Shown piece by piece: positions 10,155 to 35,195 of a stretch of DNA of 64,000 nt; position 1 is the first letter of the stretch; each line of letters starts with the position of its first letter. The position numbers and the translations under genes are program-made. The stretch is from IMG/VR virus record IMGVR_UViG_3300034283_002790, positions 32,001 through 96,000 of that record, one strand, 5' to 3'. Source of the DNA: a virus. The notes under the pieces were generated by a model that did no database searches, had not been told where the DNA came from, and saw only the letters and a program-made list of their open reading frames with translations.

Positions 10155-12017
10155 TTATCTCAATTCTTGTAAGTCAAATGTACGTACTCCATCAACTGTG
10201 ATACGTCCGTAGAAACGGTTGTTAACCATTTTCTTAGCGTATCGTGTCATAATACCTTTGATAGGTGTAAAGTTAAATGGATTGTACATTGTAGGTGTCA
10301 ATTGTAGAGGTACATACGGTGCGTAGATGTAACCAGTGTCTAACAATGATGTTCCTTTGTGTCCAATCAAAACTTGGTTTGGTGGGAAGTAAGGATCACG
10401 GTAAACTTGGTAACGTCCTGCTAAAGTACCTACTCTTTCGATACCCATGTTATATTGATCTTGCTCAGGTGAAGCGTTAGATACGTGGAAGTACTCCAAA
10501 TCATCAAAAATTGCGGAAACCTCAGATGATACAACGATCCAGTTAGCACCACCACGAAGAGTTGACTTGTGGATTTGTGCGGACAACTGGTTGATTGCTG
10601 TGATCAAAGTTTGGTTCCAGTCTTTTTGAGTGTAAGAAGTTGTTTGAGAAATTCTTCTCCATCCGTTGTAATCCCAACGTAAGTTCCAAGCCGCACCTTT
10701 ACGAAGGTCACGTAGAATTTCACGATCGATTTCAGCAGCCACTTGTTCAGACAACAATGCTGTAAGTTCAGCCTCTGCGTCGATGTTGTGGAATGCCGCA
10801 ACGTCTTGTGCTAATTCAGGAGACCATTGTGCTCTTAGTTTTCTTTCAGACACAGAAACAGTTACTGATTCTAAGTCAAAAGATACTTCACCAATTTTGT
10901 CTTCGAATTCTAATTCTTCATAACGTCTCCAAACAGCGGTAAACGATGTTGCAGATGCTGCAGAATAGATAGTAGTACCTGTGTAACCATCCAAAGATGT
11001 TGAGTTACAATCAGCACAAACTGGACAAGATAAGTCAACTTCTAAATAGATACAACCTTCTGGGTCACAGATGTTGTCAAAAGAACCACCGTTTCCGGTA
11101 GCGGCCCATTTAGTTTGAGAAGTTGTAGAGTTAGGATTAACGATTCCTTTACCGTATTGTTGAGTAACAACTCTAAACAATAATGGAACTGGAGCCGCTT
11201 GTGTACCTAATACATTACAAGGTGTTGTAGATGCGGAAATAGTTGGTTGGTTTGCGAAGATTTTAAGATCTGAAAGGAAAGTCTCAGAATCAACTTCAGC
11301 ACCATCCGGTCCTACTAATTTACCCCATCCGATGTAAGAATTCCATCCACAAAGTTTCATGATGATTTTTCGGTAATTACCTTCAGAAGTAATTTGGAAA
11401 TCAACCAAGTTACCGTTAGACCATTGTAACATGGATGTGTTTTGTGTTACAGCAGACCAACGACCTTTAGAATAATCGAATAATCCTGGAGGATCTAATC
11501 CTGCCTCAGAACCTTCATAAAACAAATCATAAAGATTTTTTGAGTAAGTAGGATTGTATGTTCCGTTACCACTGTCATATCCTGCGTTAGGATCACCAGG
11601 GTAGTTACCAGGTGCACCTACAGGAGAATAATGGTCTCCAGAGTTTGACGGATATGCTCCTGTGTAAGTACCACCAGAATATCCTTGAATTTTAGGTACA
11701 AAGTAGAACAATTTACCAATTGGTAAGTTCATTGCTTGTACTGATACGATGTCATTTGCCAACAATTTAGAGAAAACTCGACGAATGATTGGGAAAACAA
11801 CAGTTTCGAACGCTCCGTTAGAACCTTCAGAAGTTGCTTCGTTAATCAAATGTGACGCTTGGTTTTCATATAATTGTGCCACGTTTTCTTTTAGATGACC
11901 TCTAAGACCATCAAGGAATCCTAATCGATCCCATTTGTTAATAGTATCTTCTTTGATAACTTTAAGGTGCTTAAGACCGATGTTACCAACAAGACCTGAT
12001 TCTAATAATGCTCCCAT
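10155..12017 (-). CDS. major capsid protein (T4 gp23-like) with a large internal insertion
   Basis: VSVQAMNLPIGKLFY, RKLRAQWSPELAQD, LSEQVAAEIDREI, YAPYVPL and GIMTRYA are gp23-family motifs. Confidence 0.95.
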   Translation of the reverse strand: MGALLESGLVGNIGLKHLKVIKEDTINKWDRLGFLDGLRGHLKENVAQLYENQASHLINEATSEGSNGAFETVVFPIIRRVFSKLLANDIVSVQAMNLPIGKLFYFVPKIQGYSGGTYTGAYPSNSGDHYSPVGAPGNYPGDPNAGYDSGNGTYNPTYSKNLYDLFYEGSEAGLDPPGLFDYSKGRWSAVTQNTSMLQWSNGNLVDFQITSEGNYRKIIMKLCGWNSYIGWGKLVGPDGAEVDSETFLSDLKIFANQPTISASTTPCNVLGTQAAPVPLLFRVVTQQYGKGIVNPNSTTSQTKWAATGNGGSFDNICDPEGCIYLEVDLSCPVCADCNSTSLDGYTGTTIYSAASATSFTAVWRRYEELEFEDKIGEVSFDLESVTVSVSERKLRAQWSPELAQDVAAFHNIDAEAELTALLSEQVAAEIDREILRDLRKGAAWNLRWDYNGWRRISQTTSYTQKDWNQTLITAINQLSAQIHKSTLRGGANWIVVSSEVSAIFDDLEYFHVSNASPEQDQYNMGIERVGTLAGRYQVYRDPYFPPNQVLIGHKGTSLLDTGYIYAPYVPLQLTPTMYNPFNFTPIKGIMTRYAKKMVNNRFYGRITVDGVRTFDLQELR

Positions 12018-25824: not shown

Positions 25825-27879
25825 ATGATTGAGTTAGGTGATGAAAACGAGAAAAGAAATAAAAAAAGTGAATCAGGTACACCAGTACTAGATAATTTTA
25901 GTAAAGACCTGTTGAAGTTGGCAGAACAGGGTAAATTGGATCCTGTAATTGGAAGAAAGTCTGAGATTTTACGAATTGCACAAATTCTATCAAGAAGAAA
26001 GAAAAATAATCCAATTATTATCGGTGAACCTGGGTCGGGAAAAACAGCAATAGTTGAGGGTCTCGCGATGTTGATAAAAGAGGGTGAGTGTCCCAAAAAT
26101 CTTTTAGATAAAAGAATTCTTTCCTTGGATATTAATTCATTAGTTGCTGGTACCAAATATCGTGGTCAGTTTGAAGAAAGAATGAAAGTAATTATCGAGG
26201 AACTTAATCAAAATCCTGATATTATAATTTTTATTGATGAGATTCACACCATGGTTGGAGCCGGAAATAGTTCTGGTTCTTTGGATGCCTCCAACATCTT
26301 AAAACCGGCACTCTCAAGAGGTGAAATTCAGTGTATTGGTGCAACAACACTTGACGAATATAGAAAACATTTTGAAAAGGATGGTGCTTTAGACAGGAGA
26401 TTCCAAAAAATTATTGTAAGTCCATCCACTAAAGATGAAACATTTGAAATTTTGAAACAAAGTAAATTAAAATATGAAGATCATCATAAAGTCACATATG
26501 ATGATAATACTTTACGATTATTTGTTGAACTTGCGGATCGTTATATCACTGATCGAGAGTTTCCGGATAAAGCGTTCGATATCTTGGATGAGGTTGGTGC
26601 TAGAATGCAAATAGATATCAAACTTCCTGAGGTTATCGAAAATCTTAAACAAGAGGCATCCGACATCAAAAAACAAAAAATGGATGTCATCAAGAAACAA
26701 AATTACGAACAAGCGGCGGAGTTACGTGATAGAGAAAGACAAGTTTTAGGTTTGTTGGATGAAGAAAAAAAGAAATTCGAACAACAACTTAAAAATAGTA
26801 AAAGACCTATCGGAGAGGAATTAGTCTATGAAGTAGTCTCCAATATGACTAAAATTCCGGTTTCTAAAATTAACCTGGATGAGAAAAAATCTTTAGTTGA
26901 TCTTGATAAAAATTTAAATGGAAAAGTTATAGGTCAGGAAGATGCAGTAATTAAGATTACCAAATCCATCAGAAGAAATAGAATTGGTATAAAAGATCCA
27001 AATAAACCAATTGGTTCTTTTATATTTTTAGGATCCACCGGTGTAGGTAAGACATTTTTAGCAAAACAACTTGCCAAAGAAATATTTGGAAGTGAGGAAA
27101 ATCTAATAAGAGTTGATATGAGTGAATATCAAGAAAAACATACTATTTCAAAGTTGATAGGATCACCACCAGGATATGTAGGTCATGACGAAGGCGGACA
27201 GTTAACAGAACAAGTTAAAAATAAACCTTATTCAGTAATTTTGTTTGACGAAATAGAAAAGGCACATAAAGACATTTTCTCAACTTTGTTACAAATATTA
27301 GATGACGGACATGTAACCGATTCTTTGGGTAGGAAAATTAATTTCAAAAACACTATGATTATTATGACATCCAATATCGGTGTTAAAAAACTTCAAGATT
27401 TCGGAACGGGTGTTGGATTCAAAAGTTCGAATAGTGAGGCAGTGCAAGAAGAACATAGAAGAGATGTTCTTAAAAAAGAATTAAGTAAGTTCTTTGCCCC
27501 TGAATTTTTGAATAGAATTGATGACGTTGTTATTTTTAATTCGCTTAGAAAAGAACATATTGATGTTATTACTAAATTGGAGATCGATAAACTATTAGAA
27601 AGAGTGACTTCTAAAAATTACTTTTTCTCTTACGATCAAAATGTAATTGATTTAATATCTGAAGTGGGGTTTGATGAAACATTTGGTGCCAGACCCATCA
27701 AACGAGCAATTCAAGATAAAATTGAAGATTTGATTTCAGAAAAAATCCTCACGGATGAAATTGTGGAAAATCAAGAATATGTTTTAGTTGTGGAGGGTGA
27801 AAAAGAAAATAGAAAAATTTCAGTCTTAACTAAAGAGATTCCTAAAACAACCAAAAAGAGGACATCAAAAATTAAATAA
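25825..27879 (+). CDS. clpC: ClpC-like AAA+ unfoldase lacking the N-terminal Clp-repeat domain
   Basis: Two NBDs (GEPGSGKT, GSTGVGKT), pore loops KYRG and GYVG, UVR-like M-domain (YEQAAELRDRE) and ClpP-docking VGF loop. Starts about 20 aa before NBD1. Confidence 0.88.
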   Translation: MIELGDENEKRNKKSESGTPVLDNFSKDLLKLAEQGKLDPVIGRKSEILRIAQILSRRKKNNPIIIGEPGSGKTAIVEGLAMLIKEGECPKNLLDKRILSLDINSLVAGTKYRGQFEERMKVIIEELNQNPDIIIFIDEIHTMVGAGNSSGSLDASNILKPALSRGEIQCIGATTLDEYRKHFEKDGALDRRFQKIIVSPSTKDETFEILKQSKLKYEDHHKVTYDDNTLRLFVELADRYITDREFPDKAFDILDEVGARMQIDIKLPEVIENLKQEASDIKKQKMDVIKKQNYEQAAELRDRERQVLGLLDEEKKKFEQQLKNSKRPIGEELVYEVVSNMTKIPVSKINLDEKKSLVDLDKNLNGKVIGQEDAVIKITKSIRRNRIGIKDPNKPIGSFIFLGSTGVGKTFLAKQLAKEIFGSEENLIRVDMSEYQEKHTISKLIGSPPGYVGHDEGGQLTEQVKNKPYSVILFDEIEKAHKDIFSTLLQILDDGHVTDSLGRKINFKNTMIIMTSNIGVKKLQDFGTGVGFKSSNSEAVQEEHRRDVLKKELSKFFAPEFLNRIDDVVIFNSLRKEHIDVITKLEIDKLLERVTSKNYFFSYDQNVIDLISEVGFDETFGARPIKRAIQDKIEDLISEKILTDEIVENQEYVLVVEGEKENRKISVLTKEIPKTTKKRTSKIK

Positions 27880-27881
27880 AA

Positions 27882-28622
27882 CTATACGTCTTTTTGGGTC
27901 CAGGTTATTTTATTTTTTGTTTCTTTAGCCATTTGATTCATGTGATTTTTAAATGAATTGTAGAAACTTGTAGGTATTGTTAAACAAATCTTTTTCTTTT
28001 TAACTTTACCTTTTGGTACATTTCTAAATAAATCTCGTCTATCTACATTTGTATTATCCCCAGCGACACCTTGTATTTGGTAATTTGTGGTTTTTTCTCC
28101 AGTTATTGCTGCAGAAACGTATTGTTCTTTTACTGCTTCAGGACTATTCATTACTGTTGCTTTACCGACTTTAGTTGTCCCTGCGGTAATTACTACTCTA
28201 GGGTCTGTAATGTTTTGTTTGATATAAGTAATTAAATTATCCCGTCTTCTTGCCGCTAATGCATTATTATCATATCCAGATGTTGTCCCAACGGCTGATG
28301 CACCACCACCAACAGTAACATAAACTTTTCCTTTAGTCTCCTTTAAAAGATCCTTAATTGTTTGAATTATATCTTTGATTTTTGGATCGTTAGGATTTAT
28401 TGTATCAACACCATTAGCAAATGTAGTTGAACCATTCGAAACTATGTTGTAAGATACATTATATCCATTTGGATATCTTGCCTTTAATCTTTCGATACTA
28501 CTGAGTGCAGGACCACCGAGTGCCTCAGAAATAACAATATTACGTGTTGTACTAGATCCGTGAAGATTTAAAATTCTAAACTTTTCGTCTTCGGTAATAA
28601 ACGTTTTTTGACTCATGGACAT
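27882..28622 (-). CDS. late protein with possible OmpA-C-like peptidoglycan-binding domain
   Basis: YDNNALAARRRDNLITYIK resembles the OmpA-C N..LS..RA..V..YL helix; leader FITEDEKFRILNLH. Confidence 0.4.
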   Translation of the reverse strand: MSMSQKTFITEDEKFRILNLHGSSTTRNIVISEALGGPALSSIERLKARYPNGYNVSYNIVSNGSTTFANGVDTINPNDPKIKDIIQTIKDLLKETKGKVYVTVGGGASAVGTTSGYDNNALAARRRDNLITYIKQNITDPRVVITAGTTKVGKATVMNSPEAVKEQYVSAAITGEKTTNYQIQGVAGDNTNVDRRDLFRNVPKGKVKKKKICLTIPTSFYNSFKNHMNQMAKETKNKITWTQKDV

Positions 28623-28653
28623 TTTTATAATAAATATGTCCTTAAAAAAAAAA

Positions 28654-29439
28654 TTAATGTTTAGAACATCCTAACTCCTCAATTATTTTTTTTCCGATAG
28701 AAATTCCATTATAAGTGTCTTCTAACACAACGTATTCTTGTCTTGTGTGATACCGGTAGTATCCGATAGAAAGATTGAAACAGGATAATCCAAAGTTTTG
28801 ATTTAAAGGGAATATGTCAGTGTAAGGATGATATTGATATAGTGGATCACTAGGGAAATTTTCACAAATTAATCTATTCCCAACTTCAAAAAACTTACTT
28901 TCTCGATTAAACATTTTCTTTCCCATCAGGTATTCTGATATCATATTGTTTTCCGGTGCGTCAAATTGAATGCAGTACCCAACGTTTGAAAAAAATTCTG
29001 GGTCTGCCGCTTTAGAACCGTGACACCCGGTTTCTTCAGAAACAAAGAATGCCGATTTAACATTATCGAGTTCCAATAAAGAAACCATGCAGGCAAATAC
29101 ACCACATTTATTATCACCACCAATACCTGTGGGATCACCCTTGTCATTAAGAGCCCTCCAGGATTTTTTCAGTTCACCCTGGGCGTTGGGTAACATTTCC
29201 TCAATAATATTAATTGGTTCAATGTTATGTACTGTATCGGTGTGTGCGATCACACAAGGAAAAAAATCAACGTCCTGGGAGGTTTGCTTTGTTGCATAGA
29301 TGTTTTTCATCTTATCAACATAAAAAGGTATTTTATTTTCCTCTAACCAATCACAAATAAACTTAACAAGTAAATCTTCTTGATAAGTTTTTGAAGGTAC
29401 TGAAAGTACACTTTTTAAAAGTTCTAAATTATTCATCAT
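28654..29439 (-). CDS. M28/M20/M42-clan zinc peptidase
   Basis: AHTDTV, GIGGDNKCG, FVSEETGCHGS and YHTRQE metal-ligand pattern; TAAATTTG promoter at 29444-29451. Confidence 0.75.
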   Translation of the reverse strand: MMNNLELLKSVLSVPSKTYQEDLLVKFICDWLEENKIPFYVDKMKNIYATKQTSQDVDFFPCVIAHTDTVHNIEPINIIEEMLPNAQGELKKSWRALNDKGDPTGIGGDNKCGVFACMVSLLELDNVKSAFFVSEETGCHGSKAADPEFFSNVGYCIQFDAPENNMISEYLMGKKMFNRESKFFEVGNRLICENFPSDPLYQYHPYTDIFPLNQNFGLSCFNLSIGYYRYHTRQEYVVLEDTYNGISIGKKIIEELGCSKH

Positions 29440-29553
29440 GGTACAAATTTACAACGTTTTATTTTATCTACCAAAAAATTTGACTCATTAAAAAAGTTTT
29501 TTTATATTTATGTCTGTAAATAGTTCATTGAAAACACACCGTACAAAATATAT

Positions 29554-29972
29554 GGGCCTATATTGGATTTGACGGGCGTTGGTTGGATTAAAGGAGCATG
29601 TCGGGTCTGAATTAAACTCGTTAAAAACTGATTCGAACAACAACTGGCAATGTGCTAAACAAAATGGAAACTCTTGGTTTACTAAGAGGTTCTGAAGTTA
29701 CTGTAGCCTAATAGGTTTACGGAAACGGAGGGTCGATCAGACAGATACCTAGTAACAGAAGTCGTAGATGAGTTGGTTTTCACTCTAAAAGAAAACAACG
29801 GTCTCGTTCAGAGGGCTACCGTAACAAAAGTGAACTCGACACAGTTTTTGGTAACAATGTCAAAATAGGAACCAAATATTTTGGAAGATATGAAAAATCT
29901 TAACCTAAACATGTAGTTGTCTTTTTGACAAAACGAGCCGGACGAGGGAGTCGGAGCCCTCTAGGTCCACCA
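29554..29972 (+). ncRNA. ssrA: tmRNA
   Basis: 5' GGGCCTA pairs with 3' TAGGTCC-ACCA, with a G3-U wobble. 5' TATTGGATTTGAC, GCATGT/ACATGT helix, internal tag frame 29646-29714 ending TAA TAG. Confidence 0.92.
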
Positions 29973-30271: not shown

Positions 30272-30940
30272 ATGAAAATATATTTCGATCATATTAATGG
30301 TTTTGGTAAAATAAGTGATTTCGAGGTAATAGTTAACTGTGCCTATGGAATTCAAGAAAAAGAAGATAACCCATCCGAGTTGATGAATCAAGGGTGGATT
30401 CCCTGGAAAGATAGATGGTATAATGAAAGAAGTACAAGAATAAATCTTACAAACTATAAACCAAGTAAAACGACAAAAAGACTGTCAAATAAAATTACTA
30501 CCAGAAAAGGAGACATAAAAAAATATATAGAGATTTACAAGGAAATTCATCAAAAATACTCCACTCATAAATCATTTCAGAGAAATATAAGTCTTGATAC
30601 ATTTTTAGATTGTGAGATAATAGAATATTGGAAAGATAATCTTATTGCTCTGTCTATTTATAAAATGATCGGAAAGGATATGATTGCATATCAATTTATT
30701 TGGGACTATGAAGATCCAAAATTGTCTATGGGAAATGTTGCTCAGATGTTTGAGTGTGAACAAGCAAGGTTAAATCAATGTGACTATGTTTACCTTATGG
30801 GTGGATATGAAAAATGTTGTGAATACAAATCGGAATTTTCTGGATTTGAGTTTTGGACTGGTCTTGAATGGTCTTCCGATGTTGACTTATATAAAAATCT
30901 TATAAGTCGAGATCAAAAAGTTATAATACAAAATATATAA
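30272..30940 (+). CDS. ATE/Bpt-family aminoacyl-tRNA--protein transferase (N-degron tagging)
   Basis: GW..W...WYNERSTRINL (ATE_N-like) and LSMGNVAQMFECEQAR...YVYLMGGYEKCCEYKSEF (ATE_C-like YxYLG...YK). Confidence 0.7.
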   Translation: MKIYFDHINGFGKISDFEVIVNCAYGIQEKEDNPSELMNQGWIPWKDRWYNERSTRINLTNYKPSKTTKRLSNKITTRKGDIKKYIEIYKEIHQKYSTHKSFQRNISLDTFLDCEIIEYWKDNLIALSIYKMIGKDMIAYQFIWDYEDPKLSMGNVAQMFECEQARLNQCDYVYLMGGYEKCCEYKSEFSGFEFWTGLEWSSDVDLYKNLISRDQKVIIQNI

Positions 30941-30961
30941 AAAAAGGGACAGACTGTCCCT
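30939..30961 (-). terminator. intrinsic terminator closing the large non-coding unit
   Basis: AGGGACA-gac-TGTCCCT hairpin with a U-tract on the minus strand (A-run at 30939-30945). Confidence 0.7.
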
Positions 30962-30964
30962 AAT

Positions 30965-31922
30965 ATTTTACCGGTGGCTCCATTAAAAGAAACGCTGAGA
31001 TTACACGTTTTTGTGAGAACCTTTAGAGTCATTATTGTTTCTACTCTTATCCACTTCCTTTTGGAAAGTATTTCTCAGTGACGGTCTTTTAGGTTTACCA
31101 CTCCTTAAGGTTTGAATTACTCTCATCCTAATCTACTCTTTTCGAGGATGCCTCCCCAACTCGTCCTTGCGGGACTAAAGGTTTTTCGGATAATTACACT
31201 CAGACTTGGGATCTTTGTGTGCAATGAACGGCTCATTACTATGTAGTCACCTTTCATCCAAACCTGACGGACACTTTTCCTTATTTTTTATTAATTATTG
31301 GAATAATCAACTTCCATAAGTTTTGTGTTGTGGATTGTGAAAGTAGTGGTCCGCCAACCAAGCCAACCCATCTTTTGAACGAGTCGATACTCAACTACTC
31401 TCTGAAATGTCCCCATTTCCATATTTTTAGACTACTTCGAAACAAATCTTTTGGTAAAGATTCATTAAGGTTCATAACAGCACCACCTGTACATAAACAT
31501 ACCTTTCGGTTTTAAGTATCCTATAATATTGGAATCCGTAATTATAAAGTTGGATAACTCTATTTCTTACATAATTCCTACGGGTTATTCCTATCGGTGT
31601 TCCCACCTCAACTAGACGACCCACATCGCCCAATCGTCAAACCACTTTCCTTACAGCGTTGCCCTCAGTACTAAAGGTTTAACGGTATCCCGCTTGCATA
31701 CTCGACCTCGAATGTCCGAAGACAAACAAGACGCAAACCAGTTACACTTCTGATTCACTTTATCCCACTTTCGTGGTTTATTTATTGACCATATGCGGCC
31801 AAATATCTTTATTACTCAAAGGAGAGAATTACATCTCTATTATCGGTCAAATAATCTGACCGGACTTTTTTGTAAAAGGATAATTCAATTTTTCAAAGAA
31901 CTTTTCGGACGTTTCCGAACTG
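30965..31922 (-). ncRNA. large (~950 nt) structured non-coding RNA, GOLLD/ROOL-like in size and context
   Basis: No credible ORF and clearly higher GC than the flanks. Tetraloop hairpins CCAC-GAAA-GTGG (31765-31776), TGTC-TTCG-GACA (31713-31724), ACC-GAAA-GGT (31501-31510) and a GCAA-capped stem (31163-31175). Own promoter and terminator. Confidence 0.75.
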
Positions 31923-31929
31923 TTTGATA

Positions 31930-31958
31930 AGTATACGAGTAACATTTGAAAAAGTCAA
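31930..31958 (-). promoter_or_regulatory. promoter of the large ncRNA
   Basis: Minus strand reads TTGACT-N17-TATACT, near-consensus sigma70. TACTTAT overlapping it also resembles the phage TATTTAT motif. Confidence 0.6.
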
Positions 31959-31977
31959 CTCGAAACGAAAATTTTTT

Positions 31978-32124
31978 TTAAAAACTTTCAACGTAAACTT
32001 TATCGGTCCCAAAAAAGTTTGCTCTTTCCCGTGCAAAACCTAAATTTGGGGTATAAAATTTAAGACCTCTCTCATTAAAGTAATAATAAATTTCAATTTT
32101 TTCGACTGTGATTTCTTCTGTCAT
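31978..32124 (-). CDS. 48-aa hypothetical protein absent from the ORF track
   Basis: MTEEITVEKIEIYYYFNERGLKFYTPNLGFARERANFFGTDKVYVESF; TAATTTTG promoter element at 32148-32155. Confidence 0.6.
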   Translation of the reverse strand: MTEEITVEKIEIYYYFNERGLKFYTPNLGFARERANFFGTDKVYVESF

Positions 32125-32184
32125 AGTTTCTATTAATTAATTTGATACAAAATTAGGTAAATTTAAATTAAAAAACAAATTTTT

Positions 32185-33333
32185 TTATAAAATTTTTGAA
32201 AAAATATCCAGAATTCTATTTTTTTCTTCTGAAATTTTTTTGTTGGGATACATTGTGGCGTTCTGTTTGTTTAATTCTGCCTCAATATCATCAAGTTTTT
32301 TAGTTCCGGTTGAAAAAAAATCTTCTAATGCCTTTTTTATTTTTTCTTTATCAACTTTTACTACATTGAACTCTACTTGTTCTGGTGCTTCTTCTTCTGA
32401 AGGTACTTCTGGAGCATTCTTGATATTACCCTCCTTATCCATAAATTCAAAAATATCTTTTCCTTGATCCGTTCCTATGTGTACGTGGCTTGAACTTGGA
32501 TAGGAAGGCCACTCTGTTATTTTCCCAATGAAATCACCAGGTTTTACTTTGTCTCCGGGTTCTAACTTTACAGAATCCAAATGTGTGTAAAAAACACTTG
32601 GATCACCATTTTCACCAGAAATGGACAACTGAGTCCCGAAAATATTTTTTTTCTTTTTACTAGATTCGTGTTTTTTTGCCACTTTTCCATGTGTCAAAGA
32701 ATAAACTGAAGTGCCTATTGGTGCTTGTATATCCCAAGCATGTCTGGATGACCAATCTGGTGTGGATCTTTTGGCATGATCACTTGGTGTTGATATAATT
32801 TTTATTGGGTTTCCTCCAGAAAAAAAAGTCTTAGATTCCATTTTTGGAACTTTTTTCTTTTGTGCTACGGTCATTGTGACTGTCTCTTTATTACCGATTT
32901 CACCACTTACTATTTCCGCCCCAGATAGATATTTCTCAGGATTTACCCAATTTCCAGATTCTGATTTTCTAATTTCAAAATGTAAATGTGGCCCAGTTGA
33001 CTTACCACCACCACCTTCTAAACCTTGTCCACCACCAGATTCGGCAATTTTTTGACCCTGTTTAACTTTATCACCCACATCAACAAGTCTTTGAGTTAAA
33101 TGTGCGTAGGCTGAATAGAAATTTTCTCCATCAACATTATGTTTGATTATTATAAAATTACCATAACCACGTTTATTTCTCATGTCGGATCTAACAACTT
33201 CACCATCTGCAACTGAAATCACATCAGAACCATCAGGTATGGCAATGTCAATACCATTATGATGTTTTCCCCATCTAGGACCAAATCCAGAGGTCTTAGT
33301 TCCTTTTTTAGATAATGGATAAACTAATTTCAT
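32185..33333 (-). CDS. tandem double M23 peptidase (cell-wall endopeptidase)
   Basis: Domain 1 HNGID...HLHFE and domain 2 HAWDIQA...HVHIG, each with HxxxD and HxH ligands. Confidence 0.88.
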   Translation of the reverse strand: MKLVYPLSKKGTKTSGFGPRWGKHHNGIDIAIPDGSDVISVADGEVVRSDMRNKRGYGNFIIIKHNVDGENFYSAYAHLTQRLVDVGDKVKQGQKIAESGGGQGLEGGGGKSTGPHLHFEIRKSESGNWVNPEKYLSGAEIVSGEIGNKETVTMTVAQKKKVPKMESKTFFSGGNPIKIISTPSDHAKRSTPDWSSRHAWDIQAPIGTSVYSLTHGKVAKKHESSKKKKNIFGTQLSISGENGDPSVFYTHLDSVKLEPGDKVKPGDFIGKITEWPSYPSSSHVHIGTDQGKDIFEFMDKEGNIKNAPEVPSEEEAPEQVEFNVVKVDKEKIKKALEDFFSTGTKKLDDIEAELNKQNATMYPNKKISEEKNRILDIFSKIL

Positions 33334-35083: not shown

Positions 35084-35195
35084 TAATCGAAAAAGGGTTC
35101 GAACCTTTACTACTGTTTTTAACTCAGCATCTCCGTTTAACTGGATAGCGTCTACCACATCAAGTACCTTCGTACTGTCATTTCGCCATTCGATT
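35084..35195 (-). tRNA. atypical tRNA-Leu(TAA)-like gene with D-loop insertion
   Basis: Acceptor AATCGAA/TTCGATT plus A73, D-arm TGGCGAAATG...GGTAGACGC split by an extra ~22-nt hairpin, GTTAAAC loop on a poorly paired stem, long variable arm, T-arm AAAGG-TTCGAAC-CCTTT. No encoded CCA. Confidence 0.6.

What the first reader, a model, noticed from the sequence alone, without database searches (positions are those of the whole stretch)
30939..31958. ~950-nt highly structured non-coding RNA gene with its own promoter and terminator
Seen: a kilobase with no credible ORF in an otherwise densely coding genome, visibly GC-richer than its flanks. It is bounded by TTGACT-N17-TATACT (31958-31930) and a hairpin/U-tract (30961-30939). 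It has GAAA, UUCG and GCAA tetraloop hairpins, and near the 3' end CTGAGA can pair with either TCTCAG or TTCTCA, which suggests a pseudoknot. Knowledge: GOLLD and ROOL are giant ornate RNAs of unknown function, often in phages near tRNA genes. Inference: this is a divergent GOLLD-like RNA or a new giant phage RNA class, here placed next to tmRNA and a protein-tagging enzyme.
Basis: partly seen in the sequence, partly recalled or inferred. Interest (0 to 1): 0.88.

Follow-up and report, generated by a model that had tools for sequence, protein, structure and literature searches.

The report
Textbook GOLLD RNA in lake phage
The gene-free kilobase is a standard member of GOLLD, a known family of giant phage RNAs that assemble into RNA-only cages of unknown function, so the class is ordinary, although its rRNA-style leader, its tmRNA neighbour and a conserved tiny upstream gene are useful leads.

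Summary
Window 31923-30939 (minus strand) is a roughly 985-nt unit without ORFs, running from a promoter to an intrinsic terminator. It is not a new RNA class. Rfam's GOLLD model (RF02032) matches 31402-30992 over its full length at 317.5 bits (gathering score 150, E 4e-90). The 5' half, which Rfam does not model, is shared with about 100 IMG/VR phage contigs and two 630-640 kb megaphages. It is supported by compensatory changes in 68 of 120 predicted pairs. GOLLD is published as a homo-14-mer nanocage of unknown function (PMC12286853).

Three context features recur in relatives:
- The leader carries a hairpin followed by GUUCUUUGAAAA. The same word stands before the phage tmRNA, and in the rRNA leader and spacer of a Chitinophagaceae genome. 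This suggests host Nus-type antitermination.
- A tmRNA gene lies convergent to GOLLD in 47 of 98 related loci.
- A conserved 48-aa ORF lies directly upstream of GOLLD in 61 loci.

This scan has already reported GOLLD, its boxA leader and its tmRNA neighbour on other phage DNA. No read-mapping evidence of expression could be obtained. Verdict: known RNA class, low novelty.

The parts
31930..31958 (-). Promoter: TTGACT (31958-31953), 17-nt spacer, TATACT (31935-31930). The predicted start is about 31923.
   Evidence: The promoter scan scores it 10 of 12. Homologues keep TTGACA-N17-TAACTTTG at the same place, and sequence conservation begins just after it.
31904..31919 (-). Leader hairpin UUCGGAAACGUCCGAA, in the position of boxB.
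   Evidence: All 4 of its pairs show compensatory changes among homologues. Chitinophagaceae rRNA leaders have a hairpin in the same place before boxA.
31890..31901 (-). boxA-like word GUUCUUUGAAAA.
   Evidence: It is one of only 2 matches in the window, where 0.12 are expected. It is at least 90% invariant in 57 homologues. The same word lies 120 nt before the 16S gene of a Chitinophagaceae genome.
31804..31889 (-). Rest of the leader, with a lineage-variable hairpin insert at about 31874-31813.
   Evidence: The alignment shows this stretch is variable or absent in relatives. A leader profile finds nothing in the megaphage or Acinetobacter-phage GOLLDs.
31403..31803 (-). Core of the GOLLD 5' domain, which Rfam does not model.
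   Evidence: blastn gives 67-86% identity to about 90 IMG/VR loci. nhmmer gives E 2e-62 and 1e-56 to the megaphages, and weak colinear hits to the Acinetobacter-phage GOLLDs. Of 120 pairs, 68 are compensatory and 96.8% of cells are canonical, against 13-25 pairs and 36-41% in slid controls.
30992..31402 (-). GOLLD 3' domain, including the A/U-rich variable linker at about 31340-31281.
   Evidence: RF02032 scores 317.5 bits against a gathering score of 150, E 4e-90, over model positions 1-416 of 416. ARAGORN finds no tRNA in the linker.
30939..30961 (-). Intrinsic terminator: a 7-bp G+C-rich hairpin followed by U7.
   Evidence: Terminator scan and the sequence.
31978..32124 (-). Conserved 48-aa ORF ending 20 nt before the GOLLD -35 box. 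It is a linked neighbour, and no function with GOLLD is shown.
   Evidence: tblastn finds it on the same strand directly upstream of GOLLD in 61 related loci. Differences at codon positions 1, 2 and 3 are 0.28, 0.26 and 0.49. The AlphaFold2 model has pLDDT 86 and a beta-beta-alpha-beta fold.
29523..29972 (+). Convergent tmRNA gene (29554-29972) with its own boxA-like leader GUUCAUUGAAAA (29523-29534). It is a context feature.
   Evidence: RF00023 scores 74 bits over the full model. A tmRNA convergent with GOLLD is present in 47 of 98 related loci. A boxA-like word precedes the tmRNA in 31 of 32 distinct relatives.

Best explanation
The interval is the gene for a GOLLD RNA (Rfam RF02032) carried by a large uncultured freshwater phage, probably of Bacteroidota (Chitinophagaceae-like) hosts.

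Shown here:
- The RNA is a stand-alone unit of about 985 nt, from a promoter (31958-31930) to an intrinsic terminator (30961-30939).
- It has three parts: a leader of about 120 nt, a 5' domain core of about 400 nt, and the canonical 3' domain of about 410 nt with its variable linker.

Inferred from published work on the family:
- The RNA folds into two separate domains and self-assembles into a closed homo-14-mer RNA nanocage, with the linker facing inward.

Inferred from comparison:
- The leader hairpin plus GUUCUUUGAAAA copies the host-type rRNA boxB/boxA signal. RNA polymerase would then be modified by the host Nus factors (NusB/NusE and partners) and would transcribe this long untranslated RNA without Rho-dependent termination.
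- The neighbouring tmRNA would be made the same way.

The cellular function of the cage is unknown. My best guess is about 25% likely: during infection the cage sequesters or scaffolds components of translation, such as tRNA-like RNAs, tmRNA or ribosomal particles. This guess rests on the family's constant association with tRNA genes, and here with tmRNA.
For: Identity:
- RF02032 matches at 317.5 bits over the full model.
- No other Rfam family matches within 30600-32300 at E <= 1, apart from a sub-threshold terminator look-alike.
- The record is an IMG/VR virus contig of 187 kb.

Family:
- A 3'-core pattern retrieved 98 viral contigs.
- All eight of those tested, plus two megaphage and two Acinetobacter-phage loci, are RF02032 hits of 207-340 bits.

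5' domain:
- It is homologous across these loci.
- It is supported by covariation, with 68 of 120 pairs against 13-25 in slid controls.

Transcription unit: promoter and terminator, and conservation that starts at the predicted transcription start.

boxA reading:
- The window holds two matches to the motif, where 0.12 are expected, and both lie in the leaders of stable RNA genes.
- The other two matches in the genome lie in coding sequence.
- The motif is nearly invariant in GOLLD homologues.
- It is present before 31 of 32 tmRNA relatives.
- GTTCTTTGAAA lies 120 nt before the 16S gene, and GTTCTTTGACA lies in the 16S-23S spacer, of a Chitinophagaceae genome. Two other Bacteroidota genomes carry GATCTTTGAAA and GATCATTGACA at the same place.
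- boxA is the NusB/NusE binding site (PMC3177189, PMC2800207).

Nanocage: the cryo-EM 14-mer of GOLLD env-38, with separate 5' and 3' domains and an internal linker (PMC12286853).
Against: - The transcript ends are therefore predictions.
- The window's -10 element, TATACT, departs from the TAnnTTTG box of its relatives.
- The boxA-like word could be conserved for another reason, such as processing or structure. It is absent from GOLLDs embedded in tRNA arrays (L003, L106, L107), so it is not part of the GOLLD fold itself.
- Only 1 of 3 Bacteroidota genomes tested has the exact word in its rRNA leader.
- Cage assembly is extrapolated from one solved homologue, whose sequence I could not align here.
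- Nothing tested here bears on the biological function.
Confidence: 0.9

Rival explanations
1. It is a new class of giant phage RNA, unrelated to or only superficially like GOLLD.
For: The 5' 520 nt have no Rfam model, so a scan alone leaves them unexplained. At about 985 nt the RNA is longer than the 833-nt GOLLD whose structure is solved.
Against: RF02032 matches over its full length at twice the gathering score. The 5' core is homologous to the region directly upstream of the Rfam-defined domain in megaphage GOLLDs, and weakly so in Acinetobacter-phage GOLLDs. The extra length is a leader plus a variable insert.
Confidence: 0.01
2. There are two separate RNAs: an independent 5' RNA (31923-31403) and a GOLLD 3' domain RNA. 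Alternatively, a mature GOLLD is cut out of a longer precursor, with the leader removed at about 31803.
For: The published structure shows the two domains fold separately. The universal core starts only at about 31803, and relatives sit inside tRNA arrays, where RNase P/Z processing would release them. A terminator-like hairpin is called at 31758-31733.
Against: The two domains are always adjacent and colinear in every locus examined. No promoter-like site lies between them on the minus strand. The hairpin at 31758-31733 is a covarying structural helix, with 6 of 9 pairs compensatory. Leader removal remains possible and does not conflict with the main reading. No leader-trailer processing helix was found.
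Confidence: 0.1
3. The conserved GUUCUUUGAAA word is not an antitermination signal. It is instead a processing or binding site specific to phage stable RNAs, or part of the promoter-proximal region.
For: The word lies only 5-25 nt before the mature tmRNA 5' end in relatives, where an RNase site would also lie. No functional test exists.
Against: The same word, after a hairpin, occupies the classic leader and spacer positions of an rRNA operon of a likely host family. It also matches the boxA consensus type known from rRNA operons (own knowledge; NusB/NusE-boxA: PMC3177189).
Confidence: 0.2

Closest known systems
GOLLD RNA (Rfam RF02032; Weinberg et al. 2009; GOLLD env-38 cryo-EM 14-mer, Kretsch et al. 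2025, PMC12286853)
   Same: The covariance model matches over its full length. The architecture is the same: a less conserved 5' domain, a conserved 3' domain and a variable internal linker. It is phage-borne and lies near tRNA-type genes. Relatives in the same alignment sit directly after tRNA-Met, as env-38 does.
   Different: At about 985 nt it is longer, because of a leader of about 120 nt with a boxB/boxA-like signal and a variable hairpin insert. It has its own promoter and terminator and is not embedded in a tRNA array. Its linker holds no tRNA. Its nearest RNA neighbour is a tmRNA.
GOLLD copies inside tRNA islands (Acinetobacter phages Bestia and vB_AciJM_313; mycobacterial tRNA clusters, PMC6582537)
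   Same: They share the 3' domain (207-222 bits) and a weakly recognisable 5' core.
   Different: Those copies fill gaps between tRNA genes and have no leader or boxA-like word. They share only 65-73% identity, and only over the 3' part.
ROOL RNA (Rfam RF03087)
   Same: It is a large ornate phage or prophage RNA near tRNA genes, and it forms an RNA-only cage, an octamer.
   Different: Its sequence and fold are unrelated. There is no Rfam match here at E <= 1.
rRNA-operon leader antiterminator (boxB-boxA; NusB/NusE/NusA/NusG complex) and lambda nut sites
   Same: A hairpin followed by a boxA-type word stands directly behind the promoter of a long untranslated RNA. The same word is in a Chitinophagaceae rRNA leader and spacer.
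   Different: Here it heads a phage non-coding RNA and a phage tmRNA, not rRNA. No boxC was looked for, and no leader-trailer helix was found. Function is untested.

Membership tests
GOLLD RNA (RF02032) | Covariance-model score at or above the curated gathering score, over the whole model | tested here: met
   317.5 bits against 150; model positions 1-416 of 416; E 4e-90.
GOLLD RNA (RF02032) | Two-domain architecture: a less conserved 5' domain directly followed by the conserved 3' domain, more than 800 nt in all | tested here: met
   The 5' core is 31803-31403 and the 3' domain is 31402-30992. The unit is about 985 nt.
GOLLD RNA (RF02032) | Variable A/U-rich linker after the first helix of the 3' domain, which holds a tRNA in some members | tested here: met
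   The linker at about 31340-31281 aligns to the unpaired model positions of about 65-135. It is variable among homologues and holds no tRNA.
GOLLD RNA (RF02032) | Helices kept by compensatory substitutions in both domains | tested here: met
   5' core: 68 of 120 pairs compensatory. 3' domain: 43 of 103. Slid controls give 13-25 and 3-10. The structure was derived from the same alignment, so it is somewhat favoured.
GOLLD RNA (RF02032) | Location in a phage or prophage, close to tRNA genes | tested here: met
   It lies on an IMG/VR virus contig. A tmRNA is 1 kb away and tRNA-Arg is 7 kb away. Relatives have tRNA-Met directly upstream.
GOLLD RNA (RF02032) | Self-assembly into a homo-14-mer nanocage | not testable with these tools
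   Known for env-38 only (PMC12286853). It needs an in vitro transcript and mass photometry or cryo-EM.
GOLLD RNA (RF02032) | Expression, rising during phage lysis | not tested
ROOL, OLE, HEARO, RNase P RNA, group I/II introns | Match to the family's covariance model | tested here: not met
   No match at E <= 1 in 30600-32300 on either strand.
rRNA-type boxB/boxA antitermination leader | boxA-type word in the 5' leader, preceded by a hairpin | tested here: met
   Hairpin at 31919-31904 and GUUCUUUGAAAA at 31901-31890. Both are conserved in homologues.
rRNA-type boxB/boxA antitermination leader | The same word in the leader and spacer of the host group's own rRNA operons | tested here: inconclusive
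   The match is exact in one Chitinophagaceae genome, 120 nt before the 16S gene and in the spacer. Sediminibacterium soli has the one-letter variant GATCTTTGAAA, and a Saprospiraceae genome has GATCATTGACA. The true host is not known.
rRNA-type boxB/boxA antitermination leader | NusB/NusE binding and Rho-resistant elongation | not testable with these tools
   This needs biochemistry or a reporter assay.

The most novel reading that the evidence does not exclude
In this lake-phage lineage GOLLD may not be a lone RNA. It may be the core of a small conserved module.

- The 48-aa beta-beta-alpha-beta protein encoded immediately upstream stays attached to GOLLD while the genes beyond it change. 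It could be a dedicated partner of the cage, as cargo, assembly factor or regulator.
- GOLLD may act together with the convergent phage tmRNA, both being made through the host's rRNA-type antitermination machinery.

That would give the first protein and pathway handles on GOLLD function.
Probability: 0.12. Interest if true: 0.7.

Novelty: already known. Interest (0 to 1): 0.22.

Why it matters
As a class this is ordinary. GOLLD has been in Rfam since 2009-2010 and its cage structure was published in 2025. The finding therefore mainly removes a false lead for a new giant RNA.

What remains useful is context, because the function of GOLLD is still unknown. In about 100 related freshwater phage contigs:
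- The RNA is a stand-alone gene behind a host rRNA-style hairpin and boxA leader.
- It usually faces a phage tmRNA.
- It is usually preceded by one small conserved protein gene.

None of the papers searched links GOLLD with boxA or with a partner protein. This scan has already noted the boxA leader and the tmRNA neighbour on other phage DNA. These features suggest concrete experiments on how the RNA is made and what it works with.

Tried and rejected
Transcript ends remain predictions.
- Leader-trailer (rRNA-like processing) helix: the best duplex between 31923-31804 and 31003-30962 is -17.5 kcal/mol, against -14.0 +/- 3.0 for shuffled trailers. This gives no support.
- Long-range pairing of the boxA word (31899-31893) with 31108-31102, proposed by RNAalifold: rejected as probably spurious. 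Both sides are invariant, so there is no covariation. GOLLDs that lack the leader keep the 3' partner sequence.
- Other matches to the boxA word in the genome, at record positions 10373 and 118209: both lie inside coding sequence, with no tRNA and no Rfam hit nearby. They are chance matches.
- The 48-aa ORF: no Pfam family. The ESM Atlas gave only scores below 0.9. Foldseek against the PDB gave no match with E <= 0.001. The protein is slightly acidic, so nothing marks it as an RNA binder. It was not found within 3 kb of the megaphage GOLLDs or near the Acinetobacter-phage GOLLDs.
- ARAGORN misses the window's tmRNA, while Rfam finds it.
- I could not align the RNA to the solved env-38 sequence, because no RNA sequence of it was on hand. 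Individual quaternary-contact loops were therefore not mapped.

Full report
**What is there.** Window 30941-31977 has no ORF longer than 61 aa. Its G+C content is 0.37-0.42, against 0.23-0.33 in the immediate flanks. On the minus strand, a promoter-like site TTGACT-N17-TATACT lies at 31958-31930 and a hairpin with U7 lies at 30961-30939. Both are called by the consensus scans. The 985-nt transcript folds better than all 20 shuffles, with z = -3.8.

**What it is.** A scan of the whole window against Rfam 15 gives three hits above the gathering scores:
- GOLLD (RF02032) at 31402-30992 on the minus strand: 317.5 bits against a gathering score of 150, E 4e-90, covering model positions 1-416 of 416.
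- tmRNA at 29554-29972 on the plus strand.
- One tRNA.

A permissive scan of 30600-32300 adds only a sub-threshold look-alike on the terminator. RF02032 models only the conserved 3' domain of GOLLD. [quoted passage not shown] The whole RNA forms a homo-14-mer nanocage (Kretsch et al. 2025, PMC12286853).

**The 5' half.** The window lies in an IMG/VR virus record of 187 kb, estimated 64% complete, which holds one GOLLD. An exact pattern taken from the 3' core retrieved 98 IMG/VR viral contigs.
- blastn with the window's 5' half (31930-31403) hits nearly all contigs that extend far enough, at 67-86% identity. The matches cover positions about 119-528 and 6-56 of that half, with a variable insert between them.
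- In GenBank phages, the two uncultured 635- and 642-kb megaphages LR745206 and LR756502 share the 5' half. A group of Acinetobacter phages shares only the 3' part.
- All twelve loci rescanned are RF02032 hits of 207-340 bits.
- A sequence profile of the window's 5' core (31803-31403) finds the megaphage GOLLDs at E 2e-62 and 1e-56. It finds the Acinetobacter-phage GOLLDs weakly (E 3e-4 and 2e-3). In every case the match lies directly upstream of the Rfam-defined domain. A profile of the first 120 nt finds nothing in those loci.

The universal GOLLD core therefore begins at about 31803, and 31923-31804 is a lineage-specific leader.

**Covariation.** I aligned the window with 56 distinct homologues and computed an RNAalifold consensus projected on the window. 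It has 247 pairs, of which 120 show compensatory double changes in at least two sequences.

| Region | Pairs | Compensatory | Canonical cells | Slid controls (partner moved 1-3 columns) |
|---|---|---|---|---|
| 5' core | 120 | 68 | 96.8% | 13-25 compensatory, 36-41% canonical |
| 3' domain (independently validated) | 103 | 43 | 97.9% | 3-10 compensatory, 42-46% canonical |

The structure was derived from the same alignment, so it is somewhat favoured, but the margin is large. The 5' half is a genuine structured RNA domain and part of the same family.

**How it is made.** Sequence conservation among homologues starts right after the -10 element. Relatives carry TTGACA-N17-TAACTTTG at that place. 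TAnnTTTG is the -7 box of Bacteroidota promoters (own knowledge).

The leader holds a hairpin (31919-31904, all 4 pairs compensatory) followed by GUUCUUUGAAAA (31901-31890). I tested that reading as follows.
- The word GTTCWTTGAAAA occurs exactly twice in the window, where 0.12 are expected. One copy is in the GOLLD leader and the other is 20 nt before the tmRNA.
- The two further matches to the 11-mer in the 187-kb record lie in coding sequence.
- The word is at least 90% invariant in the 57 aligned GOLLD leaders.
- In 31 of 32 distinct tmRNA upstream regions of related contigs, a GTTCTTTGAWA, GTTCTTTAACA or GTTATTTGACA word lies 5-25 nt before the tmRNA 5' end, behind a TAnnTTTG box.
- The phage's Clp ATPase is most similar (55-58% identity) to proteins of Chitinophagales genomes.
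- In one Chitinophagaceae genome, GTTCTTTGAAA follows a hairpin 120 nt before the 16S gene, and GTTCTTTGACA lies in the 16S-23S spacer before the 23S gene.
- Sediminibacterium soli and a Saprospiraceae genome carry GATCTTTGAAA and GATCATTGACA at the corresponding places.

boxA RNA is the binding site of NusB/NusE, which nucleates the antitermination complex (PMC3177189, PMC2800207). The inference is that the phage uses the host's rRNA transcription mode to make its long untranslated RNAs without Rho-dependent termination. I put this at about 70%.

GOLLDs that sit inside tRNA arrays, namely the Acinetobacter phages and one megaphage, lack this leader. It is therefore an expression signal and not part of the fold. 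No paper in the library links GOLLD with boxA. This scan has reported the same leader before phage GOLLD and tmRNA on other DNA (e1-5339394, e1-5380554, e1-5392087, e1-5343238). My tests agree with those reports.

**What it does.** Nothing here tests function. By homology, the RNA should fold into a 5' cap domain and a 3' ring domain and assemble into a 14-mer cage with the linker inside.

GOLLD is known to lie near, or to contain, tRNA genes, and to rise at lysis. In this lineage a tmRNA gene lies convergent to GOLLD in 47 of 98 loci, which is 37 of the 55 loci that have at least 3 kb downstream. It is often only 60-125 nt away. My preferred functional guess is that the cage sequesters or scaffolds translation-related RNAs or particles during infection. 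This is inference, at about 25%.

**Context specific to this locus.** The ATE_C-domain gene (30272-30940) between GOLLD and the tmRNA has no counterpart in any of the 98 related loci. It is a local insertion into an otherwise conserved GOLLD-tmRNA pair.

A 48-aa ORF (32124-31978) ends 20 nt before the GOLLD -35 box.
- Homologues lie on the same strand directly upstream of GOLLD in 61 loci, or 44 of 58 distinct upstream regions. Six of the remaining regions have tRNA-Met there instead.
- Codon-position differences of 0.28, 0.26 and 0.49 indicate a real protein.
- The gene beyond it falls into at least 15 unrelated groups by a crude measure, and the window's M23 peptidase recurs in only 12 loci.
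- ORF and GOLLD therefore travel together.
- The protein model is confident (pLDDT 86, beta-beta-alpha-beta) but has no structural or family match, and the protein is not basic.

A functional link with GOLLD is a lead only.

**Verdict.** This is a canonical member of a known RNA family. The new-class reading is excluded. Novelty is low. The recurring leader, tmRNA neighbour and small upstream gene are modest but testable handles on an RNA whose function is still open.

Noticed in passing
window 31978-32124 (-): A conserved 48-aa ORF lies directly upstream of GOLLD on the same strand in 61 related phage loci. Its codon pattern indicates a real protein. It has a confident beta-beta-alpha-beta model and no family or structural match. 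The genes further upstream vary between loci.
   Followed up: partly
window 29523-29534 (+) and related loci: A boxA-like word (GTTCATTGAAAA here; GTTCTTTGAWA, GTTCTTTAACA or GTTATTTGACA in 31 of 32 relatives) lies 5-25 nt before the phage tmRNA, behind a Bacteroidota-type TAnnTTTG promoter box. It closely resembles the 23S-proximal spacer boxA of a Chitinophagaceae genome (AAGTTCTTTGACATATTGGG).
   Followed up: yes
window 29554-29972 (+): Rfam finds the phage tmRNA (74 bits) but ARAGORN misses it. A tmRNA convergent with GOLLD is present in 47 of 98 related contigs, often within 60-125 nt of the GOLLD 3' end.
   Followed up: partly
window 30272-30940 (+): The ATE_C-domain (arginyl-tRNA-protein-transferase-like) gene between GOLLD and the tmRNA has no homologue in any of the 98 related GOLLD loci. 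It appears to be an insertion peculiar to this phage.
   Followed up: partly
window 25825-29439: A ClpC-like AAA+ ATPase (684 aa) and a 261-aa peptidase recur near GOLLD in 34 and 40 related loci respectively. The ATPase is 55-58% identical to Chitinophagales proteins, which hints at the host group.
   Followed up: partly
L106 (Acinetobacter phage Bestia MW316733.1, 26116-26903) and L107 (vB_AciJM_313): The GenBank records leave an unannotated gap of about 790 nt (Bestia) or about 985 nt (vB_AciJM_313) inside the tRNA array. This gap holds a GOLLD RNA (RF02032, 207-222 bits). In phage Ab15 (PP763259.1) a 'hypothetical protein' is annotated over it.
   Followed up: partly
L002/L003 (LR745206.1 at about 420.3-421.3 kb; LR756502.1 at about 434.1-435.1 kb): Two unannotated 635- and 642-kb megaphage genomes carry GOLLD with the same 5' core as the window. 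One copy follows a tRNA and has the hairpin plus GTTCTTTGAAA leader. The other lacks that leader and is followed by a tRNA.
   Followed up: partly
window 35084-35195: Another reader of this scan flagged a tRNA-Leu-like gene with an extra D-loop hairpin here. Other reports of the scan describe tRNA mimics of this kind beside GOLLD in Bacteroidota phages. I did not examine it.
   Followed up: no
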